NCBI GenBank assembly: GCA_016192065.1
Contig: JACPUX010000010.1
Location: 49,728-113,727 of the forward strand
Length of the DNA stretch: 64,000 bases
Direction of reading: 5' to 3'
Source of the DNA: Betaproteobacteria bacterium
GTDB taxonomy: Bacteria; Pseudomonadota; Gammaproteobacteria; Burkholderiales; Casimicrobiaceae
Both the position numbers and the translations under genes were made by a program. Below the pieces are notes generated by a model. It saw nothing but the letters and a program-made list of their open reading frames with translations. It did not search any database and had not been told where the DNA came from. Positions 10,133-28,518 of the stretch are shown piece by piece; position 1 is the stretch's first letter; each line of letters opens with the position of its first letter.

Positions 10133-10202
10133 GGTATCCCTCTACAAGCAAAGCCTGCCGATCCGCTGGCAGGACGCAAGGATCAGCTCGGAAAGCCTTT
10201 CG

Positions 10203-10835: not shown

Positions 10836-10965
10836 GTCGATATCCGAAAGTTTGATCGGGTATGCATGGTCTCATTTTGGTGCGACATTTCGTGTCGCAG
10901 CATTCAAGGCCCGACACTTCCTGGTACTTTGAGCGCAGGGAGCGCGGTTAGCAGCTACGTGCTTA

Positions 10966-13378: not shown

Positions 13379-15556
13379 TCATCGAGGCCTCGCCGCCAAT
13401 GCGGTTTCCGGAACACCGCTCAAGAATCCGATGGTGGCTCGCCGCACATCGGGGCGTGCCGCTTGCTCGGCGCGCAGGCGGCCGATGAGATCTTCAAGGT
13501 CGCTCACGGGGCGCAGACGTGCTTGGCGGATGACCAGGGCAAAGTCGCCAGGTGTGAGCGGGCCTAGGCGCAGCACCCGGTCCCTGACCGCGACAATCCG
13601 GTCGAGGCCGAGCGTCTCGGCGGTATCTTGAAAGAGCAGCCAGGCCTGCTCTGGTCGGAGATAGTCGAAGCGGATCTTGCAATCGAAGCGCCGTAGCGAG
13701 GCAAGGTCGAATTGCTCGATCAGATTGGTGGAGGCGAGAAAGACGCCTTCGAAGTTTTCCATTTGCGTGAGCATTTCGTTGACCAGCGTCACTTCCCAGG
13801 ACCGCTGGGCATTGCCGCGTTGCTGCAGGAAGCTGTCGGCTTCGTCGAGCAGTAAGATCGCCTTCTCCTCGCGCGCTTCGGCAAACATGGCCGCGGCATT
13901 GTGCTCGTTTTCGCCCACCCATTTCGACAAGAGGTCCGAAGCGCGCCGCACCAGCAGGGGGCGATCCATGGTCTGCGCAAGATGCTGGGCAAAGGCGGTC
14001 TTGCCGGTTCCGGGCGGGCCATAGAAGCACAGGCGTCCGCTTTGCGCTCGTTGCAGCGTTTCGGCCATGCCGGCGATGTCGCAGTCGCAATTGAGTGCCT
14101 CGGGTCGATAGGTGGTAACCGACCTTGCCTGCACGCGCGGCTCGCGCGGCAAACCGAGCGCTTGCAGCGAATTGCCGATGGTGGTGCTGAGCGCGGCTTC
14201 GAGTTCCGCGCCCGGCCACTCCGCTAGGGCCGCATGCGCAATTTTCGCGGCCTTGGCCACGAGTGCTGGCACCAATTGCTCGTGCTCGGCGAAGCGACTC
14301 TTCCAGGTATCGGAAATGGCCAGACCGGCGAGTTCGTTGTCCAGCACCTGACGGCGCACGCATCGGGGTGGCGCATCCATGCGCAGCACAAAATCAAAAC
14401 GACGGCGCAAGGCGCGGTCCATCGACCAGACGTTGTTGCAGACCCAGATCGCGGGAACCGGATTCGTTTCGAGCTGGTTGATGAAAAAACCCTTGAGGTC
14501 GCTGCGTTTGCCCATCTCTTCGGGCGAGGCCTCTGCCGGTCGAAACACTTCATCGACCTCATCGAAGAAAAGCAAATGCGCTCCCGCTCGCTCCAGGAGC
14601 GCCTGGGCCAGGCGAAAGGCTCGCAAGCGCTGCGGGCTTTCAAGCGGAGCCCCCCAGCGAGTGAGCACCGCTACTTCAAACAGAGCGCTGCCTGCCTCGC
14701 GTGCAATCATCCGGGCAAATTCGGTCTTGCCGGTGCCGGGTTCGCCGTAGAGCAAAACGTTAACGCCGCGCCGGCGATCACGCAGTGCGGCACCGAAATA
14801 GGCCTTCAATACGGCAATCTCACGCGCAAGATGCGGGTAGTTTTGCGCGGCTAAAACGGGCGCCGGCGCGGCGGCAATGCGGCTTCGAAAAACCCGGAGC
14901 ACGTCGTCGCCGGGTTTGTTCGCGAGGTCGACCAGACTATCGATGACGCTGATGCAATCCAGAAACAGCTCTTTCCGGCGGCGCTCTTCGACAACACCAC
15001 TTCGGAAGAGCATTCCTTCCGGTGCCAACGCCTCCTGTATGCGTTGCTCGTCGATGGCCAGAGCGCAGGACAGAACCCGACTCGGAGGTATCATTTGCCA
15101 CGCTCGGCAGGAGAGAATACTCCATAGCGGGTCGCTATCTGCGGCCAGACGAAATTCAAGTATGGCTTGCTCGACCGGATCAAGTGCAAGGCGGGTGGCA
15201 AGCTGCTTGACCGGTTCGCCAAACTTGCAGTGCGTTGGCGTTTCCTTCTCCATTGCCTCTGCCTGCTGCCAATCCCTACGCATGCGGGCAATGATGGCAT
15301 CACGGTTGAAAGGGCCTTGCTCGGGGCTGCGGTCGATTTCATCGCCTAGGTCGAGCGCCCGCGCAACGGAGTCTTCGCGAAACTCTTTTTCCGTGATCAG
15401 CTGCTTGTAGTAACCGAGCCCAAGGAGCAAGCGATAAGCCCATAGCTTCGTCCGCGCGCAGGGCGTGACGCCGAGCGACATGCCCGGTTCCTCCGCCATG
15501 GGCAGTGCTTCACGCGTTGTGGGTTGTTTTGCGGCGGGATCGAGATCGGCGGGCAT
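13379..15556 (-). CDS. tandem AAA+ ATPase (two CbbX/SpoVK-like AAA modules)
   Basis: Two Walker A motifs (LLYGEPGTGKTEFARMIA and LCFYGPPGTGKTAFAQHLA), each followed by a Walker B-like segment (hhhFDEVDEVF and ILLLDEADSF); 725 aa. Confidence 0.85.
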   Translation of the reverse strand: MPADLDPAAKQPTTREALPMAEEPGMSLGVTPCARTKLWAYRLLLGLGYYKQLITEKEFREDSVARALDLGDEIDRSPEQGPFNRDAIIARMRRDWQQAEAMEKETPTHCKFGEPVKQLATRLALDPVEQAILEFRLAADSDPLWSILSCRAWQMIPPSRVLSCALAIDEQRIQEALAPEGMLFRSGVVEERRRKELFLDCISVIDSLVDLANKPGDDVLRVFRSRIAAAPAPVLAAQNYPHLAREIAVLKAYFGAALRDRRRGVNVLLYGEPGTGKTEFARMIAREAGSALFEVAVLTRWGAPLESPQRLRAFRLAQALLERAGAHLLFFDEVDEVFRPAEASPEEMGKRSDLKGFFINQLETNPVPAIWVCNNVWSMDRALRRRFDFVLRMDAPPRCVRRQVLDNELAGLAISDTWKSRFAEHEQLVPALVAKAAKIAHAALAEWPGAELEAALSTTIGNSLQALGLPREPRVQARSVTTYRPEALNCDCDIAGMAETLQRAQSGRLCFYGPPGTGKTAFAQHLAQTMDRPLLVRRASDLLSKWVGENEHNAAAMFAEAREEKAILLLDEADSFLQQRGNAQRSWEVTLVNEMLTQMENFEGVFLASTNLIEQFDLASLRRFDCKIRFDYLRPEQAWLLFQDTAETLGLDRIVAVRDRVLRLGPLTPGDFALVIRQARLRPVSDLEDLIGRLRAEQAARPDVRRATIGFLSGVPETALAARPR

Positions 15557-15743
15557 GGCGACACCAGAATGGAAAACGTTCGGGTGCCGATTGTAGGGGG
15601 TGCATGCGACACATTATGTCGCTTTAACTATTATTGCGGCTTTGCGAGCAGATCGACTTGCGGGTCTTGAAACGCATCTATACGATTCCGCGAGTAGAAC
15701 TCTGGCCTGGCAATGGCGCATTTTTTTCCGGATGGAGGCAATT

Positions 15744-16235
15744 ATGGATATTCACCTGAATTGGGTAGGCCCAATGTCGTTGGAGGCCGCTCACGAACTT
15801 TTGAACCAGGATGACGTCGGTTTGTATCAGTGGTATGGCGACCATCCGGTATATGGTGCCGAGACACTGCTCTACATCGGGATGGCCTTTGACCAAAGGT
15901 TAGGAGAAAGACTGGAGCAGGAGAACTGGGGAGAATGGATTCCTTCCACTCCGAGTCTTTATGTTGGGCGCGTTTGCACCGAGAACGGCAGCGCGCCAAA
16001 CAATGGAAGAACGATAGTTATGACCGCGGAAAAGGTTCTTTTATTCTCCCACAGCCCTGCGTTCAACTCGAGCAACCTAAACAATATCGACGGTGTGGCG
16101 CAAGATGTCCGCGTCCTCAATTGGGGGATGCGGAAGAGCTTATTGCCGGAAGTTAGCGTCTATCGGTGGGTGGCTGGCGGGCAGCATGGTCATCGGCTGC
16201 CGAATGGTTTATCTCCAGTTCAATGGTCAAATTGA
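15744..16235 (+). CDS. hypothetical protein, possible GIY-YIG-like nuclease fold (low GC)
   Basis: GGAGG RBS 5 nt upstream of ATG 15744; motif GLYQWYGDHPVYGAETLLYIGMAFDQRLGERLEQ resembles GIY...YIG...R...E but the spacing (15 aa) is atypical. Confidence 0.35.
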   Translation: MDIHLNWVGPMSLEAAHELLNQDDVGLYQWYGDHPVYGAETLLYIGMAFDQRLGERLEQENWGEWIPSTPSLYVGRVCTENGSAPNNGRTIVMTAEKVLLFSHSPAFNSSNLNNIDGVAQDVRVLNWGMRKSLLPEVSVYRWVAGGQHGHRLPNGLSPVQWSN

Positions 16236-16236
16236 G

Positions 16237-17091
16237 CTATATCTCGGGCGCATGCGTCAGGTGGTGCGACTTCGCGCCGAGTGGATTGAATGGCGGCATG
16301 AGCCTGTTTAGCGCCGCCACGGCCTCGTGGTTAGCGGCATCGATAATGTCTACCACGCTCGCATCCACGCCCATTCGTTGAACGATCGTCTCTAGCGGCA
16401 ACGCCAGCACCATCGGCGTCCAACTACGCAACATGTACAGGGCGGTGGCAGCAGCACTCGCGGCACATGCACCTTCAAAACGGAAGGGTAGCGCCACCAC
16501 TGCGGCCATGGGGATGCTGTTGGCTTGCGCGAGCCGAGTCAGTCGCAGTGCCAGGTGTGTCCCGGTACGCCGCCCCACACCGGCGCAGAGAAGCACATAC
16601 TCGCTTTCACAGACCAGCGCTTCCAGTTCGTTCTTGTTTTCCGCAACCACTCGCGAGACGCGCTCCGCATAGCGCATTGATTCCGGACACGCGTCTAGGT
16701 CGAGCAGCAGCTTCTTGTCCGCGCGGCGACGCGCCAGCGAATCACGGTCAGTATTGATGCAAACCGTTCGCACAGGTGGCGCACCGGGTTCCGCGAGGTA
16801 GCGTTCCATGATGTTGCCGCCCGCACCACCGAGACCAAACAGCGTAACGCTTGCGCCGGCCTTGGGCCCGCGCGATCCGGCATGGGCCAGCCAGGGAAAT
16901 GCGCCGAGGGCACTGGCGCAAACAGCGGCCCGGAGAAAACTTCGGCGTGGTAAGGCAGAATCGAGGATGGGAGCTTCCTTCAGGCTTCGCGCGCTCCGAT
17001 TGGCCAATATACTGGCTTCCCGGCGCGCTGGGGCGCGATGTGAGTGGTCCATGGCGAGGTCTCCTTCAACTGACAGACTTGGCGCCAGCAT
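16237..17091 (-). CDS. Tat-signal-bearing, degenerate FtsZ/tubulin-fold protein (N-terminal GTPase-domain homolog only)
   Basis: Tat motif LPRRSFLRAAV + h-region + AHA; then FGLGGAGGNIMERYL / CINTDRDSL / LLCAGVGRRTGTH / AVVALPFRFEG, aligning with FtsZ GVGGGGGNAV / AVNTDAQAL / IAAGMGGGTGTG / AVVTKPFNFEG; T3 loop deleted and T4 degenerate. Confidence 0.65.
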   Translation of the reverse strand: MLAPSLSVEGDLAMDHSHRAPARREASILANRSARSLKEAPILDSALPRRSFLRAAVCASALGAFPWLAHAGSRGPKAGASVTLFGLGGAGGNIMERYLAEPGAPPVRTVCINTDRDSLARRRADKKLLLDLDACPESMRYAERVSRVVAENKNELEALVCESEYVLLCAGVGRRTGTHLALRLTRLAQANSIPMAAVVALPFRFEGACAASAAATALYMLRSWTPMVLALPLETIVQRMGVDASVVDIIDAANHEAVAALNRLMPPFNPLGAKSHHLTHAPEI

Positions 17092-17661
17092 TCATGACAA
17101 TGCGCGGCGCAGGAAATTTTCGAACGAGGGCTTGTCTCGGGTCAAGCGCCAGACCAGGGGCACCAGCACGACAAGCCATAACATCCCGCTTTGGCGCTTG
17201 CGCTCGCGTTCGTGCGCGCTCTCGCCCGTCGGGTTAAGCATATCTTTTAGAGCGCCGATGAGGAATACCGCAAGTGTGAGTTTTGTCACCAGCGCGATGG
17301 CGAAGCGCCACGGCGATGGGTTGTCGACCGCGGTGCGAAACGAGAGCCCGAGCAGCGCAGCCGTTGCCCCTCCGAGGCAAACCAGTAGCAGCAAGCGAGA
17401 ATTGGAGAAGACAAGCGCACCCAGCAAAAACGCGGCAACCGCAAGCACCCAGCCATAATCCGCCGCATCACGAAACACGACAACGCGTTCACGTATGCCG
17501 AGCACGATTCCCGTCGAGACCATGATCAGCCAGCCCAGGATGAACCATTCGGTGGGCGATATTGGGCTTACCTCCACTGCGCCGCGCGCTCCCGCAGAGA
17601 CGAAAATCAGCGCCATGGTGCAAACGAGATTGGGCCAATTCAGAAACGGTTTCACATTCAC
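17092..17661 (-). CDS. small integral membrane protein (4-5 TM), immediately abuts the FtsZ-like gene
   Basis: Hydrophobic segments throughout; stop codon directly abuts the start of the FtsZ-like ORF. Confidence 0.5.
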   Translation of the reverse strand: MNVKPFLNWPNLVCTMALIFVSAGARGAVEVSPISPTEWFILGWLIMVSTGIVLGIRERVVVFRDAADYGWVLAVAAFLLGALVFSNSRLLLLVCLGGATAALLGLSFRTAVDNPSPWRFAIALVTKLTLAVFLIGALKDMLNPTGESAHERERKRQSGMLWLVVLVPLVWRLTRDKPSFENFLRRALS

Positions 17662-17911: not shown

Positions 17912-20074
17912 CTACTTGCCCTCAAGATCATCCATGAACTCGGACGCCGGGGCCGTTCCTGTAACCAACAGCCTGTCCCGCGCGCGCGTGCAGGCGACAT
18001 AGAGCAATTGCCGCTCGGTGTCGTAAACCTCCTGCAGGTCGCCGTCGTCGCCGACCGTTTCGATCCGCTCCTGCAGCGGGATGATTTCGTCGTCGCAGGC
18101 CATCACCGCCACCGCGCGGAACTCCAGCCCTTTCGCCAGGTGCATGGTGCAGACCGACACCTGCCCGGGTTCCGTCGCCACGTGGTCATCCAGAATCCGG
18201 CAAGGCAAGCCGGCGATGCGAAGCGCTTCCTCGGCCCGGCCGATTTGCGCGCCGGAACGCACGAAAACGGCCATCTCATGCGGCTGGATGCCGGCGCTGG
18301 CGCATTCGGCGAGCCAGTCCGCTACGACCGCGCTTTCTTCCGCCGCATCGCCCAGAATCCGCAGACGCGGCGGCGGGCCGTTGAACACCGACACGGCATC
18401 GCTGCGGTCTTCGCTATTGCCGTCCGCGTCGGTCACGGTGGGGCCGAGCAGGCGATCCGCCTGGCTGCGAATCTGGTGCGAAGTCCGGTAATTGACGCGC
18501 AGAGTGCGGGAGCGGCCGCGCACATCCACGCCGAGCGATTTCCAGGAGAAAGGCTGCTGGAAGATGCGCTGCCCAAGGTCGCCGGCGAAGAACAGCGCAT
18601 TCGGGCGCACCGCGCCTTCCCCTCCGGCCAGCGCAACCAGAAAGCGCAAGTGCGCGACCCCGACATCCTGCGCCTCGTCGACCACGGCGAAATCGAAAAC
18701 GGGATTGCGCCTCGCTTTCAAGGCGCTTGCCAGGGCCGTGAATAGCCCCGAGGCCGTGACCAGGCCCTTGTCGCGCAAGCCGGCGCGGACGCGCTCGAAG
18801 ATCGCCCACAACACCGCCCGCTGCGCTTCCGGCAGCCGGGTCTTGCGGCCGAGGCGCACCACGTCGCGATAGGCCTCCCAGCGGTCGAGCTGCCAGGCAT
18901 CGACCACGTGTTCCCATTCGGCGAGCAGAAAGCGCCGGCCGAACTTGTGTCCCGCCACGGCCCCGGCGGCGGCGTCCATGAGCTGGCGAATGTCGTCGCG
19001 GGTCGCCAGCTGTGCCGAGCCGACATGGGTCTTGTACAAGCGCAGTCCGATGGCGTCGAGAGAAAACACGTCGATCCGCTCGGCGAGCCGCGGCTCGGAA
19101 GTCAGCAGGCGGTTGAGCTTCGATTGCAGGGCACTGGCCAGTGTGTCGGTAAACGTGGCCAGAAGGACGCGCGCATCGGGATTCGTCCGCGCCAGATGCG
19201 CGGCGCGGTGCAAGGCCACGATGGTCTTGCCGGTGCCGGCCGAACCGGCCACGCGCGCCGGGCCGGCGTAATCCCGCTCCACCCACTGGCGCTGCTCGGG
19301 GTGGAGAAAGACCGTCCATTTCTCCCACGGATAATCGAGGGCGCGCTGCAATTCCTCGACGTTGCCCATCACGCGGAAGCGGCGCTGCGCGTCGGGATGG
19401 TCGAACGGGCTGACCGCCGACGGTGCAGGCACACGCGGCTTGCCGCCCGTCGCCAGTTCAAGCAGCGCCTCCGCCGCCTCTGCCGGCAAATGATCGGCAA
19501 GGACGAGCAGGCTGTCCTCCGTGGCCTGCTTCACGTCGGGCAACCACTCCGGCGGCACGCCGTAGCCCAGCAGCTCGTCGTCGGGAACGTTCAGGAATAG
19601 CGGCTTCGCCGCCACCACTTCTGTGGCACTCGCTGGCAAGGGCAATTCGCCCTGCACAACCACCGGCACCACGATTTCCCTGACCGTCTCGCGGATCTCG
19701 ACCAGTTGCGCCGCGCCAGTCTTGGGATGGGTTTCGAGCTTGCGGCGCTCGGCCCACTCGTAGGCCTTGTCGTGGTGATCGACGTAGCAAAGCAGCAGGC
19801 TCGACTCGCTGCGGTGAACGATCAGGCGAATGTCGCTGCCCACCCGCACCGACCAGAAATTCTTGTCCTTGGCGCGGTCGAGCTTGTGAAAACTCAAGCC
19901 GGGGCTGGCGGGATTCAGTTGCAGGTCGAAAGCGGTCGTCTTGACGAGCTTCTGCTCGTCGCCGGTCAGCCGGGCCAGGCTTTCAGTGAAGGTGTCAGCG
20001 ATGAGGTACTGCATGTACGAGACCGCTTCGCCATCCGAATCAAGGTGTATGCAGACAGCCGCGGGCGATCGCAA
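17912..20074 (-). CDS. UvrD/Rep-family SF1 helicase with N-terminal RelE/ParE-like domain
   Basis: Walker A GSAGTGKTIVALHRAAHLA, C-terminal LLYVACTRARDRLLV (motif VI); N-terminal about 110 aa with FWSVRVGSDIRLIVHRSESSLLLCYVDHHDKAYEW resembling RelE/ParE toxin-fold C-terminal motifs. Confidence 0.8.
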   Translation of the reverse strand: MRSPAAVCIHLDSDGEAVSYMQYLIADTFTESLARLTGDEQKLVKTTAFDLQLNPASPGLSFHKLDRAKDKNFWSVRVGSDIRLIVHRSESSLLLCYVDHHDKAYEWAERRKLETHPKTGAAQLVEIRETVREIVVPVVVQGELPLPASATEVVAAKPLFLNVPDDELLGYGVPPEWLPDVKQATEDSLLVLADHLPAEAAEALLELATGGKPRVPAPSAVSPFDHPDAQRRFRVMGNVEELQRALDYPWEKWTVFLHPEQRQWVERDYAGPARVAGSAGTGKTIVALHRAAHLARTNPDARVLLATFTDTLASALQSKLNRLLTSEPRLAERIDVFSLDAIGLRLYKTHVGSAQLATRDDIRQLMDAAAGAVAGHKFGRRFLLAEWEHVVDAWQLDRWEAYRDVVRLGRKTRLPEAQRAVLWAIFERVRAGLRDKGLVTASGLFTALASALKARRNPVFDFAVVDEAQDVGVAHLRFLVALAGGEGAVRPNALFFAGDLGQRIFQQPFSWKSLGVDVRGRSRTLRVNYRTSHQIRSQADRLLGPTVTDADGNSEDRSDAVSVFNGPPPRLRILGDAAEESAVVADWLAECASAGIQPHEMAVFVRSGAQIGRAEEALRIAGLPCRILDDHVATEPGQVSVCTMHLAKGLEFRAVAVMACDDEIIPLQERIETVGDDGDLQEVYDTERQLLYVACTRARDRLLVTGTAPASEFMDDLEGK

Positions 20075-20414
20075 ACTCTTTCAGCTTCTTGGCCAGCTTC
20101 CGGCACTCCTTATCCGCACGCTGGCCAAAATTGATGTAGGCATGTGCCGGTGAAGCAGGAATAATCGGATCGGGTTGGCTCGCCAAACCCGCATGAGTGA
20201 CCTCATCGCACTTCACTCCCCATACGCCTGCCGACGGATTTCCCAGATCATCGGTGTAATGACAGTATGATGCCTCAGCGGAAATCTGGTCACCGTCATA
20301 CACCGACAGCCGCCCATGATCCTTGGGAAATGGGTAAAACGCCTGACTTGACAGTATGCCTTCCGGAAGAAAGTTAGGATGCACCTGCCGCAGCAACAAG
20401 GTCTGACCATTCAT
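20040..20414 (-). CDS. hypothetical protein P124
   Basis: 124-aa ORF, 35-nt overlap with the helicase gene and 4-nt overlap with the upstream gene (operon). Confidence 0.45.
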   Translation of the reverse strand: MNGQTLLLRQVHPNFLPEGILSSQAFYPFPKDHGRLSVYDGDQISAEASYCHYTDDLGNPSAGVWGVKCDEVTHAGLASQPDPIIPASPAHAYINFGQRADKECRKLAKKLKEFAIARGCLHTP

Positions 20415-21511
20415 GCAGCGGTTGTCCTGATGCTGTCACTCAAGAATCCAAATAGCGACTGCCATTCCGCAGCGTTTTCCAGTTTGAATTCACGCTCGAT
20501 GTCATTGCCGTTCGGCCCGAACGCATGAAAGCTGGCTTGAAGGCTGCTCAAAAGAAGATCGAGAGACGGAGAACCATCAGCCGCCCATTCCAGCAGCAAG
20601 TTGCCGTCCTGCGTTGGAACGATGCTCGGCAGTATCAATCTTTCCGGATAGTCCGCAATGAGCTTGTCGGCAACGATTGCCAACTTGTCAGCATCAAGGG
20701 CCGCGCCTTGCCCCTCGTACCAACCAGCCCGCACCTGGGCAAGCTCATCCATGCGCGTGGCAATCGCGTAATTTCTTACAACCTCCATTGACTCCACGGA
20801 AATCAGTTTCTGCAAGCGATCCCAAGAATCATGTGCCGCCACACCTTTCAAAGCCACCTGATGTCGTGGCTTCCCGCCGTATTCTCGCGCCTTGTTGTGG
20901 AAAGAATCCGGCATAGGCACGTTGACTTGATTGCCATCGGCGAGGCGAAGCCTAAACGTCGATTTTTCCCAATCCACTTCCGCAATGGAACCGAGTAAAT
21001 CGACTTCCTTTTCATATACCTGATCGGCGGCAAGCACCAATTTCTTTCGCTTGTCCGGAGTCAATACCGCGCTTCCAGCTCGTTGGCGCGGCAATTCCAG
21101 GGCCTCGCCCTCACGCAGTGAACGGCCAAACTGGTTGAAATGCGCCAGGAGTTCCTTGGGAAAATTGTCGGGCAAAGCGTTTTCCGGTGCGGCAATACAC
21201 TCGGAAACCAGGTCTCTGGCCTGATCGAAATAGTCTCGCTCCCCACCCACTAGCGCCAGCGCGCCGGAAAGCACCAGAACCAAATTCGGCATAGCACTGC
21301 CTGGATCGATGCGCTCAATGTCCAAACGAAAGTTCGACGCGAAGCCCTTCGGAACACGCTCCCGATCGGGATGATCCGTCAAGTACAGGTGCTTGGCGAG
21401 GTCGAGGATCAAGCTTTCGTACGCAGCAAGGTCGCGTGCGACATCAACCGGCAAGGTTTTCTCGTCGAACCTTGCGCCGGTGAACTTGGGTTGCGAAAAA
21501 TCGGTCTTCAT
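20411..21511 (-). CDS. hypothetical protein P366
   Basis: 366-aa ORF, first gene of the 3-gene operon, 73 bp downstream of the mod stop; moderately lower GC. Confidence 0.5.
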   Translation of the reverse strand: MKTDFSQPKFTGARFDEKTLPVDVARDLAAYESLILDLAKHLYLTDHPDRERVPKGFASNFRLDIERIDPGSAMPNLVLVLSGALALVGGERDYFDQARDLVSECIAAPENALPDNFPKELLAHFNQFGRSLREGEALELPRQRAGSAVLTPDKRKKLVLAADQVYEKEVDLLGSIAEVDWEKSTFRLRLADGNQVNVPMPDSFHNKAREYGGKPRHQVALKGVAAHDSWDRLQKLISVESMEVVRNYAIATRMDELAQVRAGWYEGQGAALDADKLAIVADKLIADYPERLILPSIVPTQDGNLLLEWAADGSPSLDLLLSSLQASFHAFGPNGNDIEREFKLENAAEWQSLFGFLSDSIRTTAA

Positions 21512-21583
21512 ATGCCCTCAGGCAAGCAGTTTACACCACCCGAAACACCTTCATCACCTCATCCCCCAGGTGATTGATGACCT

Positions 21584-24388
21584 TCACCGCGATGCGACCG
21601 GACTTCGGTTTCTTGAACGGGCGCGAGGTGTCTCGCTGTTGAGCGAGGCCCAGGCTTCTGCGTCGATCTCGGCCTTTAACGTGGTCTTCAACGAGCTGTA
21701 GGGATCGTTGGCGCCGAGGAAGTAGGCGTGGCGGACGAAGAAGCTTTCCTCGTTGTAGTCGGTGTCGATGAACCAGCAGGCGATGCCCTCGGCGCCATCG
21801 CTGACGACTTCGCCGGTCTGGGGCTTGAACACGTCGACGCCGTTGACCTTTACGCGCAGTTGGTCGCCTTCGGGTAGCAGCGTGATGTCCGGCTCGCCGA
21901 AGATCACGAACAGGTTGCCCTTGCCGGTGTTCTTGAGGTCTTCGGCCATGTGCAGATCGGCGTTCATGCGCGCCTTGAGCACCGGCAGCTTGCCGAGCTT
22001 GGCGAACTCGGTGGTGTGGGCCTCGAAGTTGAAGGCGCAGGCGATCAGCACGTCGAAGTTGGCGTCGGCCGCCTCGCGCGCCGCCTCCACCAGATCGGCG
22101 CGCTGCACGGTGCCGAATTCGGGGCCGATGAAGATGGCGGCGCGCTTCTCGATGCCTGCCGCCGTCTCGCCGGGACTGACTTTTACGCCGCCCTCGATGT
22201 AGCGCCCCTCGGCGCAGACCAGGCTGCCGGGCCAGGGCGTCAGCGCTGTGAAGACGATGCGGTCTTCCTTGTGCGCCTGCTGCACGCCCGCCGTCTTGAG
22301 GTTCTCCAGGATCATCTGCGGGAAGGACTGCTTCGCCGCGTAGTCCGCATCCGCTTGGCGCAGGGTGTCGATCAGTTCGTCGTTTTCATCCACGCCCAGC
22401 ACGCGGTGCGGGGAGAGGCTTTCGACGGTGAAGGGGCCGGCGACGCGCACCGCTTTCTTGTTTTCGTAGGGCTTGTCGTAGAGATATTCGAACTCGGCCT
22501 TGGCGGCAATCGACGCATCGATTTCCTTCTGCCGCGCAATGCGTGCCTGCCACCAGTCGGCGTGGAGCTGCTTCGCCTTGTCCGCCCATTTCGCGTCAGC
22601 GTCGCGGGGAATTTCCCATTCCTCGAGAAGATCCTTTTTGACAGGATGAACAGAATTTACAGGACAGTTTTTCCCATCCTGTTCATCCTGTAAGTCCTGT
22701 CCAATGGTTTGGTTCAGCCTCTCGCGCAAGGGTTCCAGCGTCTGCTGCCACTTGTCCCAGATCACGTCGATCTCGGCGTTGTTGGCGATGGATTTCAGCG
22801 TGATGTGCGGCACGCGCTCATAGACGAAGCCGTGGCGGATGTTGCCGTGCGTCGGTTGCGAACTCGGCGCGGTGCGCGTGACTTCCGCCTCCTTCAACTG
22901 ACCTTCGCGGGAATCGGCAAGCAAGTAGTAGGGATAGCGGGCACCCATGATGCGGGCGCGCGCCAGTGCCAGCGCAACGCGGGAAGTGTCGACGGTGATC
23001 CAGCGGCGGCCCCATTGCTCGGCGACATAGGCGGTGGTGCCCGAGCCGCAGGTGGGGTCAAGGACGAGGTCGCCGGGGTCGGTGACCATTTGGATGCAAC
23101 GCTCGATAACCTTTGGGTTAGTTTCGACTACATATGCCTTCCCGATCAACGAAACGGTGTCTCCCCAGTGGTTATCAATCGTTGCTACCGGGTAGTCATC
23201 ATGGAACCGCTTGAACTTGAGAGTACTATGGGATGCGTGGATTCGATTCGCCTTAGCCAAGCGGAACATGCCAAGTTCTGACGTCTTCCAGTGCCGGTTC
23301 TGGCCGCACGCGTAAAACCTATTTCTGTGCGTGAACTGATAGCCGAGTGTTGGCGAGTCGCCGGAGGAAATCAGCGGCTGCTTGAATAGGTATCGTGCTC
23401 CGGCAGGCAAGCCACTATCTGCTTCTAGCCTTACAGAAGTGCCGTCGAGAAATTCCGCCGCATCAAAGTAGCTATCATTGCCGGTTTCCTTGGCAACAAA
23501 TAGTTGCCTGTACTTGGCGGCAGACTTGCATTTCGCGTACCAGAGTGCAGAGTCATAAACGCTCGAGATCAGGGCGGTTTCAAAGCCACTTGAAGTCTTG
23601 AAGTGAATTTCCCCGACGAAGTTGTCGTCCCCGAACACTTCATCCATGACCGCTCTGACCCGATGCACATTCTCATCACCAATCTGCACAAAGATCGACC
23701 CCGAGTCGGTCAGCAGATCGCGGGCCACCGTCAACCGGTCACGCAGGTAGGTGAGGTAGGAATGAATCCCATCCCGCCAGGTATCGCGGAACGCCTTGAC
23801 CTGCTCCGGCTCGCGGGTGATGTGGTCGGCCTTGCCGTCCTTGACGTCGCGACTGGTCGTCGACCACTGGAAGTTGCTGTTGAATTTGATGCCGTAGGGC
23901 GGATCGAAGTAGATGCACTGCACCTTGCCGCGCAGGCCCTCGCGTTCGGCGAGGCTGGCCATGACCTGCAGGCTGTCGCCGAGGATCATGCGGTTGGTCC
24001 AGTTCTGGTCGTGCTGGTAGAACTCGGTCTTGTCGGCGTCCTTGGGGATGCCGTTGAAGTCGGCAAACAGGTCGGCGGTGATCTGCCCGGTGTCGTGCTC
24101 ACGTTCCTTCGATTCGCGCAGCAGTTCGTCGATCAGCGCCTTGGGGTGTACTTTCTCCTGGATGTAGAGCGGCGGCGCATGGACGACGAGATCGCTCCAG
24201 TCCTGCTCGTCCTTGCCGCGCCAGACCAGTTGCGGGTCGAGGTCGGTGTTGCGCGGGTAGCGCACCTGCTTCGGGTGCTTCTGCGCCTCGTCCAGCACCG
24301 ACTGGTATTCGGCGGTGGGGATGTTCTTGCGGCGGGCAGAGTCGTGCTTGATGGCGTCGACGGACTTTTGGGTGGGTGGCTTGGCCAT
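21584..24388 (-). CDS. mod: Type III restriction-modification methyltransferase (Mod, N6-adenine, DPPY), unusually long (934 aa)
   Basis: N-terminal Mod-type region, catalytic motif IV CIYFDPPYG, motif I-like VLDPTCGSGTTA after the TRD (gamma-class order), about 300-aa C-terminal extension. Confidence 0.85.
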   Translation of the reverse strand: MAKPPTQKSVDAIKHDSARRKNIPTAEYQSVLDEAQKHPKQVRYPRNTDLDPQLVWRGKDEQDWSDLVVHAPPLYIQEKVHPKALIDELLRESKEREHDTGQITADLFADFNGIPKDADKTEFYQHDQNWTNRMILGDSLQVMASLAEREGLRGKVQCIYFDPPYGIKFNSNFQWSTTSRDVKDGKADHITREPEQVKAFRDTWRDGIHSYLTYLRDRLTVARDLLTDSGSIFVQIGDENVHRVRAVMDEVFGDDNFVGEIHFKTSSGFETALISSVYDSALWYAKCKSAAKYRQLFVAKETGNDSYFDAAEFLDGTSVRLEADSGLPAGARYLFKQPLISSGDSPTLGYQFTHRNRFYACGQNRHWKTSELGMFRLAKANRIHASHSTLKFKRFHDDYPVATIDNHWGDTVSLIGKAYVVETNPKVIERCIQMVTDPGDLVLDPTCGSGTTAYVAEQWGRRWITVDTSRVALALARARIMGARYPYYLLADSREGQLKEAEVTRTAPSSQPTHGNIRHGFVYERVPHITLKSIANNAEIDVIWDKWQQTLEPLRERLNQTIGQDLQDEQDGKNCPVNSVHPVKKDLLEEWEIPRDADAKWADKAKQLHADWWQARIARQKEIDASIAAKAEFEYLYDKPYENKKAVRVAGPFTVESLSPHRVLGVDENDELIDTLRQADADYAAKQSFPQMILENLKTAGVQQAHKEDRIVFTALTPWPGSLVCAEGRYIEGGVKVSPGETAAGIEKRAAIFIGPEFGTVQRADLVEAAREAADANFDVLIACAFNFEAHTTEFAKLGKLPVLKARMNADLHMAEDLKNTGKGNLFVIFGEPDITLLPEGDQLRVKVNGVDVFKPQTGEVVSDGAEGIACWFIDTDYNEESFFVRHAYFLGANDPYSSLKTTLKAEIDAEAWASLNSETPRARSRNRSPVASR
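22641..22700. repeat. AT-richer composite inverted repeat inside the mod coding sequence (13-bp perfect IR ACAGGATGAACAG/CTGTTCATCCTGT with 25-bp spacer, plus a 7-bp IR ACAGGAC/GTCCTGT)
   Basis: Directly read; in-frame (encodes ...DEQDGKNCPVNSVHPVKKD...). Confidence 0.7.
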
Positions 24389-24588: not shown

Positions 24589-25431
24589 TCAGGAATCGAG
24601 GCCATCAGGGTTCTTGAGCGATTTCTTTTCTTCTGCTGCCAGACGGCGTTCGACTTTTTTGACATCCTCGGCTGGCGGAAGGCTTTCGGGGCGGATGCCG
24701 CGCTCGATCAGGGTCTTGCGCACTGCTTCGTTGTTGGTGATGTGCTCGTTGGAAATGGCCCGCTCAGTGCCAAGACGATGCTCGCGCGTATTGAAAATGG
24801 TGATTTCTGTGGCGAAGTCCTTGGCTTTCAGGATGATGGTTGGCGCGAAGTCGGCCAGTGGTCTGCTATCCGGCACTTTCCACTGTGCCTTCATGGCTTG
24901 AGTCGACTTTCCGAAGAGAGCCTGGTCGCCTTTACTGCGGATCAGCGCGAAATCCTGATTGCCGCCGGTCTGTTCATAGATGACGGATGAAAGGTCCTTT
25001 TCCGTTTTGGTGAGCTTTTTCCGTGCCTGCACCCGCTCCGCTTCCAGCAGACGTTGCTCGATCAACTCCGCTTTGCGCGTCTGGATGGCAAAGTAGGTCT
25101 GGGCAAATGCAATTTCCGGCTTTTTGGAGTCGCCGTTCTGTGCAATCAGATAGCAGGCATAGCGGGTGAGCATGAGGTCATCCACTTCACGCTGGCTGCC
25201 AGAGCCCAGATCGACCATTTTGGTGACCTCAACAAAATGGTCTGCTATCGGGTGATTGGTCACTTCACAAGCGGTTCTTGCCTTGCTGACGACCGACATG
25301 AAGTTTCGCCATTCCGTATAGCCCAGCAAATGCTGAATATCGCGCGCCAGCCAAAACTCAACGCCATTTTCAGCTTGTTGCGCATGCGCCTCGAAGGAGT
25401 CGGTCAGCGAATGGATAAGATCAGTTTTCAT
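24589..25431 (-). CDS. dinD: DinD-like / Bro-N domain protein (DNA-damage-inducible protein D family)
   Basis: N-terminal Bro-N-like segment EFWLARDIQHLLGYTEWRNF..., 280 aa, lower GC than neighbours; sits between res and mod. Confidence 0.7.
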   Translation of the reverse strand: MKTDLIHSLTDSFEAHAQQAENGVEFWLARDIQHLLGYTEWRNFMSVVSKARTACEVTNHPIADHFVEVTKMVDLGSGSQREVDDLMLTRYACYLIAQNGDSKKPEIAFAQTYFAIQTRKAELIEQRLLEAERVQARKKLTKTEKDLSSVIYEQTGGNQDFALIRSKGDQALFGKSTQAMKAQWKVPDSRPLADFAPTIILKAKDFATEITIFNTREHRLGTERAISNEHITNNEAVRKTLIERGIRPESLPPAEDVKKVERRLAAEEKKSLKNPDGLDS

Positions 25432-25440
25432 GAACCTTCC

Positions 25441-28400
25441 CTATGTTCGAATGGGAACCGTTTTCCCCTCAGCGAGGGTCTGGCGAATCATTTGATCGAA
25501 CTCCGCCTCCACCTTTTTGGCGAAGTCTTGCTGCATCCGGAACACGTCGGTGAACTCGGCGAAGGCCCAGCGCCCGTATGTGCCGAGGTGATTCACGCCG
25601 GGCACCCAGTAGGTGTCCATGGTCGATTTCTTTTCCTTGGCGTCCTCTCGCCGATAGCCCTTGATCTCGACGATCAGATGCAGCAGGTCGTCCGGGCCGT
25701 GCCCGTCATCGACCAGGACGATGAAGTCGGGCAGGTATTTGCGCGTTTCCGAGCCGTAGCGGTAGGGCACCTCGAAGCCGAGTCCGTGGTTCTTCACGTA
25801 GGCGCGCACCTTCGGATGCGCTTCGGCCACGCGGCAGAATTCGGCTTCCCAGTCGCTGTCGAGCACCACCCAGTTGATATGGCAGTGCCGGGAACTGGTC
25901 TCCCAGCGGCACGCCTTCGAGGTGTTGAAGCGGACATGCCGTGTCGAGCCGTTGGGGTTGTAGGGATCGAGCAGCGCCTTGATCGGTCGTTCGTCGAGGA
26001 ATCGCCGGGTGATGGCAGCAGTGATTTTCTCGCAGGCCATGTCGGCCAGTTGCAGATACAAAAGCTGCGCCGGGTAGGTGCCGCCCTTGCACTCCAGATG
26101 ATGGTCGAGCCATTCCTTGGCGATGCGCTTCAGCTGGCCGAAGAGATGCAGCTTGGGCTCCTCGCCGGGATCGCGCCACTTGGTGTAGAGCAGCCGCTGG
26201 GTGAGGTTGAACAGCAGGGTCGAGGCGCGGACATCGCCCAGATGGTCGACCGTGAGGTTGACGCCCTCGCCGATGATGCCTTCGTTGCGCGTCTCGCAGG
26301 GGCCGACCAGCTCCGGGGTCAGGAGCAGCGTCGAGTCTTCGTTGAAATGGGCCGTGAGCCGTTCTTCCGGCAGCTCGACGCGGTAGCCTTCGACGCGCGG
26401 GAAAACGATTTCGAGGGCGTCGCGCTCGGGGCGGACTGCCTTGACCTGCACCGTTTCGCGCGGCGGCTGCGGCGGACTGACGACGGGCTTGGCGGTGAAG
26501 TCGAAGGGGATGCCGAACACGTCGGCGTATTCGACGTCGAATAGTCCTTCCTCGTTGAGATCGTAGGACTGGCGGCGCAGCGCCCGGCCGATCACCTGTT
26601 CGCACAGGAGCTGCGTGCCGAAGGCGCGGATGCCGAGGACGTGGGTCACGGTGTTGGCGTCCCAGCCTTCGGTCAGCATCGACACCGACACCACGCAGCG
26701 GATCGTACCGCCGAGCTGGCCGGCCTTGCCGACGGTGTTCATGACTTCGCGCAGGAGTTCCTGATCGGCGAGGTTGTCGCCGGCACGGGCGTCGCCGGTG
26801 CGCTCGACGATCTCGCGGCGGAAGCGCGCGATTTCGTCGGCGGCCATTTCGTGGAACTTGTCGTCCAGCGCATCGCCCGCTTCGAGCTGCTCGCTGTCGA
26901 TCAGCAGGGTGTTCGGGCGCGGCAGCGGATTGCCGGTGGTTTCGTCGAAGTTGCGAAACAGCGGCAGGCGGCCGTGTTCGGGCGTGGCGGTGCCGTCATC
27001 ATTCTTGCGATGAAAGCCGGAAATGAAGTCATAGACGAGCTTCGAAATGGCGGTGTTCTGGCACACCACGATGAAGCAGGGCGGCACCTTGATGCCGGCC
27101 TCCTGCCAGAGCTTGAAAGTCTTTTCGTAGTGGCCGTACAGCGCCTGTAGGGCGGTTTGCAGCCGGGTCGGCAGCTTGAGCGGGTCGAGTTCCTGGTTGG
27201 CGCCGCGCCCTTTCTTCGGCATGTCCTTGCGGATGTTCTCCCAGAGGTTGCGGAAAACAGGCAGTTCGTCGCCGGGGATGTTTTCCGCCACCGGAACGCG
27301 CGGCAGCTTGACGATGCCGCACTCGATGGCATCCATCAGGGAAAAGTCGCTCATCGTCCAGGGGAACAGCGTGCCTTCGGCGTAACCCGATCCGCGCAGG
27401 AAAAAGGGTGTGGCGGACAAGTCGATCGTGCGACTGAGACCGAGCTTGCGGTTCACGGCTTCAAGGCCGGAAATCCAAAGGCGGGCGGCTTCGTTGTTCT
27501 TCTCGGCCTCGGTCTTTTCCTCGCCCTTAAGATCCTCGTCATCGGCTTCCCGCGGCTTCTCGCGGTAGCAGTGGTGGGCCTCGTCGTTGATGGCGAGGAT
27601 GTTCTTCATGCCCATCAGATCGGGCATGACGCGCTGGAGCATTTGGCCTTCGGTTTCGGTGGTGACGATCTCGTCGCCGGTGCGGCCCTTGAGCAGTTGG
27701 CGCCCGCCCTTGGAAATGTCGATGCGCTCGCGCAGCTTGAAGGCGTGGTAGTTGGTGATGACGATCTTGGCGCGGCCCATCTCGTCGAGCAGATCGTGGG
27801 GCACCAGTTCGCGCTCGCGATAGTAGCTGTCGGGGTCGTTGGGCTGGAGCACGCGCAGCCGGTCCTTGATGGTGAGGCCCGGCGCGCAAATCAGGAAGCC
27901 GCGGGTGAATTGTTTGCTGGACGGGCGGCGAACGGCATTGAGGGTCTGCCAGGCGAGCAGCATGGCCATGACGGTCGTTTTGCCCGCCCCCGTGGCCAGC
28001 TTCAGCGCCAGCCGCATCAGGCCGGGATTGGCGTCCTTGTTGGCGGCCGCCAGGTGATCGAGCAAGCGTTTGCCGTGCCTGGTGCCGGGCGCGACCTCGA
28101 TCAGCCAGATGGCGGCTTCGACCGCCTCGACCTGACAGAAGAAGGGGCGGACACCGTTGAATTTGTGATGGCGCCAATGCTGCAGCAGCCGCGCCGTCTC
28201 CGGCGTCACCTGCCACTGGTTCGGGTTCGGCAGCGCGCGCCAGGCGTCCACGTGATTGCGCACCTCGTTGATGATCGAGGTTGGGTCGTATTGCTGAGTG
28301 CCGCTCGATAGACCCTTGCCTTCGTCGAAAACGAAGCCTTCCTGTTGCGCGACTTGTTTCTGTTTCTTCGGTTTTGGGATTGGAGTGATGAACTCAGCAC

Positions 28401-28518
28401 GGCGGCGCAACTCCAGAATTTGCTGGGTCGGTTGACCGGCAGCATCCAACTCCCAATGTCGCGACGGGCGCTCATAGGGAGAGTTCAGAATCGGACGATC
28501 GAAAAACGGAATCGACAT
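25441..28518 (-). CDS. res: Type III restriction endonuclease Res subunit (SF2 helicase + C-terminal PD-(D/E)xK nuclease)
   Basis: Walker A LATGAGKTTVMAML, DEAH box AINDEAHHC, motif VI QVIGRALRR, C-terminal ...DFIVLVDDG...EIKGY nuclease-like; 1025 aa. Confidence 0.85.
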   Translation of the reverse strand: MSIPFFDRPILNSPYERPSRHWELDAAGQPTQQILELRRRAEFITPIPKPKKQKQVAQQEGFVFDEGKGLSSGTQQYDPTSIINEVRNHVDAWRALPNPNQWQVTPETARLLQHWRHHKFNGVRPFFCQVEAVEAAIWLIEVAPGTRHGKRLLDHLAAANKDANPGLMRLALKLATGAGKTTVMAMLLAWQTLNAVRRPSSKQFTRGFLICAPGLTIKDRLRVLQPNDPDSYYRERELVPHDLLDEMGRAKIVITNYHAFKLRERIDISKGGRQLLKGRTGDEIVTTETEGQMLQRVMPDLMGMKNILAINDEAHHCYREKPREADDEDLKGEEKTEAEKNNEAARLWISGLEAVNRKLGLSRTIDLSATPFFLRGSGYAEGTLFPWTMSDFSLMDAIECGIVKLPRVPVAENIPGDELPVFRNLWENIRKDMPKKGRGANQELDPLKLPTRLQTALQALYGHYEKTFKLWQEAGIKVPPCFIVVCQNTAISKLVYDFISGFHRKNDDGTATPEHGRLPLFRNFDETTGNPLPRPNTLLIDSEQLEAGDALDDKFHEMAADEIARFRREIVERTGDARAGDNLADQELLREVMNTVGKAGQLGGTIRCVVSVSMLTEGWDANTVTHVLGIRAFGTQLLCEQVIGRALRRQSYDLNEEGLFDVEYADVFGIPFDFTAKPVVSPPQPPRETVQVKAVRPERDALEIVFPRVEGYRVELPEERLTAHFNEDSTLLLTPELVGPCETRNEGIIGEGVNLTVDHLGDVRASTLLFNLTQRLLYTKWRDPGEEPKLHLFGQLKRIAKEWLDHHLECKGGTYPAQLLYLQLADMACEKITAAITRRFLDERPIKALLDPYNPNGSTRHVRFNTSKACRWETSSRHCHINWVVLDSDWEAEFCRVAEAHPKVRAYVKNHGLGFEVPYRYGSETRKYLPDFIVLVDDGHGPDDLLHLIVEIKGYRREDAKEKKSTMDTYWVPGVNHLGTYGRWAFAEFTDVFRMQQDFAKKVEAEFDQMIRQTLAEGKTVPIRT

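What the first reader, a model, noticed from the sequence alone, without database searches (positions are those of the whole stretch)
17912..21511. Three-gene operon P366-P124-helicase immediately downstream of the Type III mod gene: candidate helicase-based defense module
Genes 20411-21511 (366 aa, unknown), 20040-20414 (124 aa, unknown) and 17912-20074 (UvrD-family SF1 helicase) overlap by 4 and 35 nt. They lie 73 bp downstream of mod on the same strand. The helicase is not a housekeeping UvrD/Rep: it has a distinct N-terminal domain and two unknown partners. This does not match Gabija (no OLD/Toprim ATPase), Hachiman (SF2 helicase plus DUF1837) or Nhi. It could be an R-M-linked helicase-dependent system, or an extension of the Type III system.
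Basis: partly seen in the sequence, partly recalled or inferred. Interest (0 to 1): 0.7.

Follow-up and report, generated by a model that had tools for sequence, protein, structure and literature searches.

The report
Defence gene pair nested in restriction operon
The three genes are not one system: the two small unknown genes are a catalogued but untested candidate anti-phage pair (PDC-M32) sitting as swappable cargo inside a restriction-modification operon, and the helicase is that operon's own conserved third gene, related to ArmD of the ARMADA defence system.

Summary
The ORFs exist as described, with two corrections. The helicase most likely starts at ATG 20014, giving 700 aa and a 25-nt gap after P124 rather than a 35-nt overlap. 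The mod gene carries a 2-nt frameshift near its 3' end.

P366 and P124 match PADLOC's candidate system PDC-M32 (A 1e-127, B 4e-45). This two-gene cassette was predicted by "guilt-by-embedding" and has never been tested.

The helicase is homologous over its full length (33% identity, E 3e-96) to E. coli ArmD, the RelE-like plus UvrD/GajB-like helicase of ARMADA type II.

- **Helicase-centred survey:** I examined 80 metagenome loci. Every contig long enough to show it has Res(BPTD_3080 family)-Mod upstream of the helicase. Of the 56 loci where the Mod-helicase junction is visible, 17 are empty, 39 hold diverse defence cargo and only 3 hold PDC-M32.
- **PDC-M32-centred survey:** About half of the pairs lack the helicase and lie in or next to DISARM-like, Type IIG-like or Type I systems.
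- **Helicase tree:** Sister helicases carry different cargo.

The functional unit is therefore Res-[slot 1: DinD]-Mod-[slot 2: PDC-M32]-ArmD-like helicase. The three-gene reading is not supported. The biochemistry of PDC-M32 is unresolved: A has an OB-fold domain, and B has no recognisable fold.

The parts
25441..28518 (-). Res: Type III-like restriction subunit (SF2 ATPase plus C-terminal endonuclease), BPTD_3080 family. First gene of the host operon.
   Evidence: NCBIfam NF046055 scores 1380.6 bits against a cut-off of 800. Pfam ResIII and RE_endonuc. Found upstream of Mod and the helicase in every sufficiently long related locus.
24589..25431 (-). DinD-like gene (Bro-N domain; PADLOC candidate PDC-S13). 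Cargo in variable slot 1, between Res and Mod.
   Evidence: NCBIfam DinD scores 379.5 bits against a cut-off of 242. PADLOC PDC-S13 1.2e-117. The Res-Mod gap exceeds 300 bp in 9 of 29 helicase-centred loci, and DinD is present in 4 of them.
21531..24388 (-). Mod: Type III-class N6/N4 DNA methyltransferase. The ORF stops at 21584 because of a 2-nt insertion at about 21628-21631. The conserved last 31 codons continue in another frame to 21531.
   Evidence: PADLOC MTase_III scores 1342.6 bits. Pfam N6_N4_Mtase. The frameshift was shown by three-frame translation against homologue C-termini, and the same sequence is present in the Logan contig L116.
20411..21511 (-). PDC-M32A (P366): first gene of the embedded two-gene cargo in slot 2. 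Central OB-fold domain (aa ~166-245, window 20777-21016) between N- and C-terminal domains with no known relatives.
20040..20414 (-). PDC-M32B (P124): second gene of the cargo, overlapping A by ATGA. Small protein of unknown fold with nearly invariant R9, Q10, F26, P28, S37 and H91.
17912..20014 (-). ArmD-like helicase (700 aa). RelE/HigB-like domain (aa 1-~95, window 19730-20014), helical linker region (aa ~96-236) and compact UvrD/GajB-like SF1 core (aa 237-700; Walker A K263, Walker B D446-E447). Last gene of the host operon.
   Evidence: Pfam UvrD-helicase, UvrD_C and AAA_19. PADLOC GajB 5.5e-19 and C3a187 1.9e-25. HigB-like_toxin is hit weakly by 14 of 15 family members (best 9e-4). BLASTP against E. 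coli ArmD gives 33% identity over 700 aa, E 3e-96, N-terminal domain included. The ArmD identity of that E. coli protein is supported by K266 and D454 and by its neighbour ArmC, WP_000937974.1.

Best explanation
The region is a nested locus, not a three-gene system.

Host operon. It consists of Res (BPTD_3080-family Type III-like restriction subunit), Mod (Type III-class methyltransferase) and a third conserved gene. That third gene is an ArmD-like helicase: an N-terminal RelE/HigB-like domain fused to a GajB/UvrD-like SF1 motor. In its minimal form the three genes abut or overlap.

Variable slots. The operon has two positions where unrelated, co-directional defence genes sit. Slot 1 lies between Res and Mod and holds DinD/PDC-S13 in this window. 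Slot 2 lies between Mod and the helicase and holds P366+P124, which is PADLOC candidate PDC-M32.

Shown here:
- the homology assignments;
- the conservation of the Res-Mod-helicase frame;
- the occupancy and diversity of slot 2;
- the occurrence of PDC-M32 without the helicase, inside or beside other modification-based systems;
- turnover of cargo between closely related helicases;
- recombination scars in which pieces of the Mod 3' end and the helicase 5' end are duplicated around cargo.

Inferred:
- Cargo is exchanged by homologous recombination in the conserved flanking genes.
- Cargo is probably transcribed with the host operon, because the spacers are 16-25 nt and no promoter or terminator signal rises above chance.
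- Res-Mod restricts unmethylated DNA as Type III enzymes do.
- The helicase supports that defence in an ATP-dependent way, as ArmD does in ARMADA type II, where it is needed for protection.
- PDC-M32 is an autonomous second layer of defence. The OB-fold protein A would bind a nucleic acid or a phage single-strand-binding factor and control the small protein B, the likely effector with conserved Arg, Ser and His.

The PDC-M32 mechanism is the weakest step. I give it about 0.3.
For: Assignments:
- PDC-M32A/B, MTase_III and PDC-S13.
- BPTD_3080 Res and DinD, both above curated cut-offs.
- Helicase against E. coli ArmD: 33% identity, E 3e-96, full length. The ArmD description and mutants K266A and D454N come from bioRxiv 10.1101/2025.09.15.676423. 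The E. coli comparator has K266 and D454 and lies directly after ArmC, WP_000937974.1.

Frame conservation:
- All 18 helicase loci with at least 9 kb of upstream sequence have Mod upstream, and Res too wherever the contig reaches that far.
- 10 of 12 plasmids carrying a close Res (>=53% identity) carry the helicase. The other 2 are cut by a Tn3 insertion directly after Res.
- On a P. avellanae plasmid, Res, Mod and the helicase run 3034-6120, 6122-9001 and 9001-11094.
- In 16 empty loci the Mod stop and the helicase start are 0-17 nt apart.

Slot 2:
- 56 junctions could be read: 17 empty, 39 with 0.6-8.3 kb of cargo, and 3 of those 39 with PDC-M32.
- The cargo falls into about 55 protein clusters beyond PDC-M32.
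- Cargo includes Ppl, PDC-S06, two defence reverse transcriptases, HEC-06, PDC-S27, GajA, LmuB, AbiLi, AriA and HEC-01, plus a complete Gabija-like pair.

Independence of PDC-M32:
- A and B are adjacent in 34 of 35 loci; 16 loci have the helicase and 16 do not.
- Loci without the helicase sit inside or beside DISARM-like, Type IIG/PglX-like, Type I and C5-methylase genes.

Turnover and scars:
- In the helicase NJ tree, PDC-M32 loci are scattered, and the window's nearest relative L040 has different cargo.
- Scars are seen in L020 and L112.

Precedent: the guilt-by-embedding paper and TgvAB inside a Type I system.
Against: - No experiment exists for PDC-M32, for this Res-Mod-helicase trio, or for co-transcription.
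- More distant BPTD_3080 Res genes (<=46% identity) occur on plasmids that lack this helicase. The helicase is therefore a clade-specific addition, not a universal third subunit.
- Helicase relatives also follow DruE-like or ARMADA genes. The helicase could be a portable accessory rather than a true subunit.
- From the PDC-M32 side, half of the sampled loci are in this host. A functional preference for this host is not excluded.
- Mod is frameshifted in this genome, so the host system may be impaired here.
- The helicase-centred sample is the 80 closest of more than 578 relatives, so it covers limited diversity.
- The model of B was too poor for any functional inference.
Confidence: 0.78

Rival explanations
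1. One reading: P366, P124 and the helicase form one three-component, helicase-based defence system that merely lies next to a Type III R-M system.
For: The genes are co-directional and tightly spaced (4-nt overlap and a 25-nt gap). In 16 of 35 P366-centred genome loci the helicase follows P124.
Against: Of 56 helicase loci with a visible junction, 53 lack P366/P124. Seventeen of them have Mod joined directly to the helicase. P366/P124 occurs without the helicase in DISARM-like, Type IIG-like and Type I contexts. Sister helicases carry different cargo. The helicase's experimentally studied homologue, ArmD, works with methylase and helicase partners, not with P366/P124-like proteins.
Confidence: 0.04
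2. The helicase is an autonomous single-gene defence (RelE-like toxin plus helicase sensor). 'Slot 2' would then simply be the boundary between two neighbouring systems in a defence island, where other systems accumulate.
For: Distant BPTD_3080 Res-Mod systems lack the helicase. Related helicases sit at the 3' end of unrelated DruE-like or ARMADA systems. A toxin-like domain fused to a motor is a common design for single-gene defence proteins (general knowledge).
Against: The Mod stop and the helicase start overlap or lie 0-17 nt apart in loci without cargo. The helicase co-occurs strictly with Res-Mod in this clade. L006 keeps the trio together even though Res is moved to after the helicase. 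In ARMADA type II, ArmD is needed together with the other three genes, and ARMADA is reported to act directly rather than by abortive infection.
Confidence: 0.15
3. P366/P124 is not an anti-phage system but a toxin-antitoxin-like addiction or regulatory module. It would stabilise or tune the modification-based systems in which it is embedded.
For: It is a small two-gene cassette with translational coupling. It is repeatedly found inside or beside methylase-containing systems. No recognisable nuclease or NTPase effector domain was found.
Against: Other cargo in the same slot includes validated defence systems. In the source study, embedded cassettes tested so far were mostly active: seven systems were confirmed (abstract). 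A is large (366 aa, three domains with an OB fold), which is unusual for an antitoxin.
Confidence: 0.15

Closest known systems
PDC-M32 (PADLOC phage defence candidate; Payne, Hughes, Fineran & Jackson 2024, bioRxiv 10.1101/2024.01.29.577857)
   Same: P366 and P124 match the PDC-M32A and PDC-M32B models over their full length. They occur as an adjacent A-then-B pair, embedded in multi-gene defence systems, which is how the candidate was defined.
   Different: The source study surveyed embedding in Hma, BREX, DISARM and Type I R-M. Here the host is a Type III-like R-M with a helicase. The candidate is untested and carries no domain annotation. This work adds an OB-fold domain in A and a list of conserved residues in B.
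ArmD of ARMADA type II (bioRxiv 10.1101/2025.09.15.676423; mBio PMC13463889)
   Same: The architecture is the same (RelE-like N-terminal domain plus GajB-like UvrD helicase) and the two proteins are homologous end to end (33% identity, E 3e-96). Both are the last gene of a co-directional operon that contains a methyltransferase, and both overlap or abut the preceding gene.
   Different: ARMADA partners are ArmA (BrxHII/Snf2-like), ArmB (PglX-like methylase) and ArmC (YprA-like helicase-nuclease). Here the partners are a ResIII-type restriction subunit and a Type III-class Mod, so this is not an ARMADA system. No embedding slot before ArmD was seen in the two E. coli loci I examined.
Type III restriction-modification systems
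   Same: Mod matches a Type III methyltransferase model, and Res has the SF2 ATPase and C-terminal endonuclease regions.
   Different: The gene order is res then mod. There is a conserved third gene (the helicase) and two cargo slots. Res matches PADLOC's Type III Res models only weakly (E 3.5e-5).
Hma (helicase, methylase, ATPase) systems and their embedded HEC genes
   Same: It is a three-component methylase-plus-motor system in which most loci carry embedded, co-directional defence cargo. Occupancy is 62.7% in Hma and 39 of 56 (70%) here. The cargo families overlap (HEC-01, HEC-06, Septu-like PtuA).
   Different: None of the three host proteins matched an Hma model in the PADLOC hits listed. 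The host components are therefore different families.
Gabija (GajA + GajB)
   Same: The helicase core matches GajB models.
   Different: The window has no GajA/OLD-Toprim partner. The GajB matches are weak. The helicase has an extra RelE-like domain. Where Gabija-like genes occur as cargo, they bring their own GajB-like gene.

Membership tests
PDC-M32 (PADLOC candidate) | Two adjacent co-directional genes matching the PDC-M32A and PDC-M32B profile HMMs | tested here: met
   A scores 1.2e-127 over 1-362 of 366 aa. B scores 4.3e-45 over 1-123 of 124 aa. The two genes overlap by 4 nt.
PDC-M32 (PADLOC candidate) | Anti-phage activity | not testable with these tools
   The only paper in the library that names it besides the source study merely lists a hit. 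The source study lists it as a candidate only.
ArmD-like helicase family | UvrD/GajB-like SF1 helicase core with intact Walker A and Walker B motifs | tested here: met
   Pfam UvrD-helicase and UvrD_C, both above cut-off. GSAGTGK263T and VVD446EAQD align with ArmD K266 and D454.
ArmD-like helicase family | N-terminal RelE-like domain fused to the helicase | tested here: met
   The N-terminal 236 aa align with the ArmD N-terminus. Fourteen of 15 family members hit Pfam HigB-like_toxin, but all below the gathering score (best 9e-4). The fold assignment therefore rests on weak profile hits and on the published ArmD annotation.
ARMADA type II system | The helicase follows ArmA (BrxHII-like), ArmB (PglX-like methylase) and ArmC (YprA-like helicase) | tested here: not met
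   The upstream genes are a ResIII-type Res, DinD, a Type III-class Mod and PDC-M32.
Type III restriction-modification | Mod methyltransferase of the N6/N4 class matching Type III models | tested here: met
   PADLOC MTase_III scores 1342.6 bits. Pfam N6_N4_Mtase 2.4e-28.
Type III restriction-modification | Res with an SF2 ATPase motor and an endonuclease domain | tested here: met
   Pfam ResIII and RE_endonuc (the latter just below its cut-off). NCBIfam BPTD_3080 family restriction endonuclease scores 1380.6 bits against a cut-off of 800.
Type III restriction-modification | Two-gene system in the canonical mod-then-res order | tested here: not met
   The order is res, (dinD), mod, and a conserved third gene follows. 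The canonical order is stated from general knowledge.
Type III restriction-modification | Intact Mod reading frame in this genome | tested here: inconclusive
   A 2-nt insertion removes the conserved last 31 residues. It is seen in two assemblies of what appear to be related samples. Its effect on activity is unknown.
Gabija | A GajA (OLD-family ATPase-Toprim nuclease) encoded next to the GajB helicase | tested here: not met
   No GajA match among the nine genes scanned around the helicase.
Hma | Host genes matching the HmaA, HmaB and HmaC models | tested here: not met
   No Hma model appears among the PADLOC hits listed for Res, Mod or the helicase. Only the best 25 hits were shown for Mod and the helicase.
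Genetically embedded defence cargo (guilt-by-embedding) | Genes lying between the genes of a multi-gene defence system, and also found elsewhere without that host | tested here: met
   PDC-M32 lies between Mod and the helicase here. It is absent from 53 of 56 related hosts and present in other hosts.

The most novel reading that the evidence does not exclude
Res-Mod-ArmD-like helicase would be a distinct three-component immune system that also acts as a functional platform. The helicase and Res would generate or expose a signal such as single-stranded DNA, and whatever cargo sits in slot 2 would read that signal.
Probability: 0.1. Interest if true: 0.8.

Novelty: new variant of a known kind. 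Interest (0 to 1): 0.5.

Why it matters
There are three consequences.

1. **The three-gene candidate is removed.** The pair is re-filed as PDC-M32, which still needs a phage test.
2. **The helicase family is broader than ARMADA.** The RelE-like plus UvrD-like helicase known from ARMADA type II also serves as the conserved last gene of a Type III-like restriction-modification clade. It therefore looks like a portable accessory of methylation-based immunity. This gives a simpler three-gene background in which to study it.
3. **A new place to look for defence genes.** The junction between Mod and the helicase is a busy cargo site. It is occupied in about 70% of loci, with about 55 protein clusters among 39 loci, many of which match known defence systems. 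The papers I could search describe this behaviour for Hma, BREX, DISARM and Type I systems, but not for Type III-like systems. The unannotated cargo families found here are ready-made candidates for new defence genes.

Tried and rejected
- **Housekeeping UvrD/Rep/PcrA/HelD.** Rejected: all NCBIfam equivalog scores are far below their cut-offs.
- **Gabija.** Rejected: the window has no GajA. Embedded Gabija-like cargo elsewhere brings its own GajB-like gene.
- **Hma.** Rejected: no Hma model hits.
- **Stand-alone RelE-like protein partnering PDC-M32.** This was suggested by L020 and L023. In L020 the ORF is a chimera of the helicase 5' end and the Mod 3' end, which is a recombination scar.
- **B related to the helicase's RelE-like domain.** hhalign probability 0.2%.
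- **Sequence searches of A, B and the helicase N-terminus.** Searches against PDB and Pfam gave nothing useful apart from the weak HigB hits.
- **Promoter and terminator scan.** Counts were at chance level.
- **Literature.** 'BPTD_3080' returned no paper.
- **Technical failures.** The afdb50 fold library was unavailable. One alignment call failed on an internal stop codon.


Full report
**Observation**

The three minus-strand ORFs exist at the stated coordinates. P366 (20411-21511) and P124 (20040-20414) overlap by ATGA. The helicase ORF can be extended to a TTG at 20074, but two lines of evidence place the real start at ATG 20014. First, fifteen homologues start at the equivalent position. 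Second, an independent gene call on a second assembly gives 700 aa. The 35-nt overlap is therefore an artefact, and the real spacer is 25 nt.

The mod ORF ends at 21584 only because of an extra AC at about 21628-21631. In another frame the sequence continues to 21531 and encodes the C-terminus that all homologues share. The same sequence is present in a Logan contig. The ancestral mod stop is thus 19 nt before P366.

**What the proteins are**

Neither P366 nor P124 has a Pfam, NCBIfam or PDB sequence match. Both match PADLOC's candidate system PDC-M32 over their full length: A at 1.2e-127 and B at 4.3e-45. PDC-M32 is cassette CAS_00128 of Payne et al. 2024. It was predicted from its embedding in BREX, DISARM or Type I R-M systems and has not been tested. 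The only other paper that names it just lists a hit.

The upstream genes are as follows:
- a BPTD_3080-family restriction subunit (1380 bits against a cut-off of 800);
- a DinD-like gene, which is PADLOC candidate PDC-S13;
- a Type III-class methyltransferase (1342 bits).

The helicase has a compact UvrD/GajB-like core. It scores far below every housekeeping equivalog.

**The helicase is ArmD-like**

The first ~90 residues give weak but consistent hits to the RelE-like HigB toxin family: 14 of 15 homologues, best E 9e-4, all below the gathering score.

A plasmid search found 32-39% identical full-length relatives that follow a methyltransferase and a giant DruE-like helicase in Thermus and in E. 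coli IncY plasmids. The E. coli gene is 98% identical in DNA to a chromosomal gene found in 533 E. coli genomes. In O157:H7 it lies directly after WP_000937974.1. That protein is the ARMADA type II ArmC representative named in bioRxiv 10.1101/2025.09.15.676423. The E. coli helicase also has K266 and D454, the ArmD residues mutated in that study. [quoted passage not shown]

The window's helicase aligns with ArmD from residue 5 to residue 694 at 33% identity, E 3e-96.

**Who travels with whom**

*Survey centred on P366.* A scan of one genome per species gave 35 loci.
- P124 follows P366 in 34 of them.
- The helicase follows in 16, always with Res and Mod upstream wherever the contig reaches that far.
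- 16 loci with enough downstream sequence lack the helicase.
- At least five of those sit inside or beside other modification-based systems: DrmD+DrmMI (L015), Snf2 plus a Type IIG/PglX-like methylase (L025, L031), between hsdM and hsdR (L033), or next to a double C5 methylase (L021).

*Survey centred on the helicase.* A metagenome scan using the helicase N-terminal domain found at least 578 relatives, of which I examined the best 80.
- All 18 loci with at least 9 kb of upstream sequence have Mod upstream, and Res too wherever the contig reaches that far.
- The Mod end and the helicase start are both visible in 56 loci.
- 17 of these have no cargo. In 16 of the 17 the Mod stop and the helicase start are 0-17 nt apart.
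- 39 carry 0.6-8.3 kb of co-directional cargo. Only 3 of the 39 carry PDC-M32.

*Annotated plasmids* show the same picture.
- The P. avellanae plasmid has Res 3034-6120, Mod 6122-9001 and helicase 9001-11094.
- The Gemmobacter and Rhizobium plasmids have other small genes in both slots.
- Ten of twelve plasmids with a close Res carry the helicase. The other two are truncated by Tn3 directly after Res.
- More distant BPTD_3080 Res genes come without the helicase.

**The slot**

Beyond PDC-M32, cargo in slot 2 falls into about 55 protein clusters. Matches to PADLOC models include Ppl, PDC-S06, two defence-associated reverse transcriptases, HEC-06/GmrSD-like, PDC-S27, GajA, LmuB, AbiLi, AriA, HEC-01, Old and PtuA. 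There is also one complete Gabija-like pair.

In a neighbour-joining tree of 74 helicases, loci with PDC-M32 are scattered among empty loci and loci with other cargo. The window's nearest relative, L040 (helicase 84% N-terminal and 83% core identity, Res 90%), carries an unrelated 392-aa gene in the slot.

Two loci point to homologous recombination in the conserved flanks as the exchange mechanism. L020 contains a chimeric remnant in which the first 82 codons of the helicase are joined to the last ~20 codons of Mod, lying between an 801-aa cargo gene and PDC-M32. L112 has extra Mod 3' fragments before a second cargo.

Slot 1, between Res and Mod, is occupied in 9 of 29 helicase-centred loci. 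DinD fills it in four of them.

**Structure of the cargo proteins**

P124 modelled poorly (pLDDT 59) and gave no fold match. Its family is large, with 1248 clusters at 50% identity, and is almost always a stand-alone protein of 120-145 aa. R9, Q10, F26, P28, S37 and H91 are nearly invariant. It is unrelated to the helicase's RelE-like domain.

**Interpretation**

The unit under selection is Res-[slot 1]-Mod-[slot 2]-ArmD-like helicase. P366/P124 is one of many interchangeable cargoes.

This matches the embedding phenomenon described for Hma, BREX, DISARM and Type I systems. Here it occurs in a host type that those studies did not survey. The ARMADA paper does not mention Type III restriction enzymes as partners for ArmD-like helicases.

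How the helicase helps Res-Mod, and what PDC-M32 does biochemically, are inferences only.

**Verdict**

The three-gene interpretation is not supported. The pair is an already catalogued but untested candidate.

The new elements are the combination of a Type III-like R-M with an ArmD-like helicase, and its highly active cargo slots. I rate this a new variant of a known kind, of moderate interest.

Noticed in passing
window 21531-21640 (-): The mod gene has an extra AC (about 21628-21631) that shifts the frame 35 codons before the normal stop. The highly conserved C-terminus (..GRIAVKVINHLGDEVMKVFRVV) is still readable in another frame. The same sequence appears in an independent Logan assembly (L116). 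This could be a real inactivating or variable mutation, or an error shared by the read sets.
   Followed up: partly
window 24589-25431 (-): A DinD-like gene (NCBIfam DinD above cut-off; PADLOC candidate PDC-S13) sits between Res and Mod. This second junction is also variable: 9 of 29 related loci have an insert there, and 4 of the inserts are DinD.
   Followed up: partly
window 13379-17661 (-): Directly after the helicase come a 189-aa hydrophobic protein, a tubulin/FtsZ-like GTPase (284 aa) and a two-AAA CDC48/IetA-like ATPase (725 aa). They are not conserved next to the helicase in other loci. This may be a separate, unusual defence-island module.
   Followed up: no
window 10203-13234 (-): A four-gene minus-strand block: a 279-aa protein of unknown function, Nmad2 (1.2e-34), Nmad3 (4.5e-26) and a zinc-ribbon/DUF2628 protein. 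These are nucleotide-modification-associated domains, lying between dnaB and the AAA ATPase.
   Followed up: no
window 5000-8215 (+): Just after glmU-glmS (1740-5254; assigned from the ORF N-termini, no family search run) there is a GC dip to 0.51. It is followed by a WYL-WCX regulator (6080-7078) and a PP2C-type phosphatase (7295-8215). The position after glmS is a classic insertion site (general knowledge). I did not examine it for element ends.
   Followed up: no
window 28798-29813 (-): A Zeta-toxin/AAA_33 kinase-like gene (213 aa) lies upstream of Res and is preceded by a 125-aa ORF. This may be a toxin-antitoxin pair at the edge of the island.
   Followed up: no
L020 7228-9947; L112 4552-6858: These are recombination scars. 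In L020 an 801-aa cargo gene is followed by a chimeric ORF (helicase codons 1-82 fused to the last ~20 Mod codons), then PDC-M32, and there is no helicase. In L112 an extra copy of the Mod 3' end precedes a second cargo.
   Followed up: partly
L006 (Zoogloeaceae MAG) 4-6007: The gene order is permuted: Mod, PDC-M32A, PDC-M32B, helicase, then Res. The trio stays together even when rearranged.
   Followed up: no
L122 (Thermus thermophilus plasmid) 1-10998: A 39%-identical relative of the helicase follows an N6 methylase and an 1838-aa DruE-like helicase, next to a type III-A CRISPR locus. It looks like an ARMADA- or Druantia-like system in Deinococcota.
   Followed up: partly
L037/L063/L080, L071/L094, L057, L074 (slot 2 cargo): Several recurrent or single cargo cassettes have no confirmed match of their own among known or candidate defence families. 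L037:6630-7397 (first gene of the three-gene set of about 255, 205 and 140 aa) and the single genes of 429 aa (L057) and 396 aa (L074) were scanned individually and matched no PADLOC model. The remaining genes of that set and the second three-gene set (about 370, 380 and 320 aa) entered only the pooled scan, so their own results are not known.
   Followed up: no
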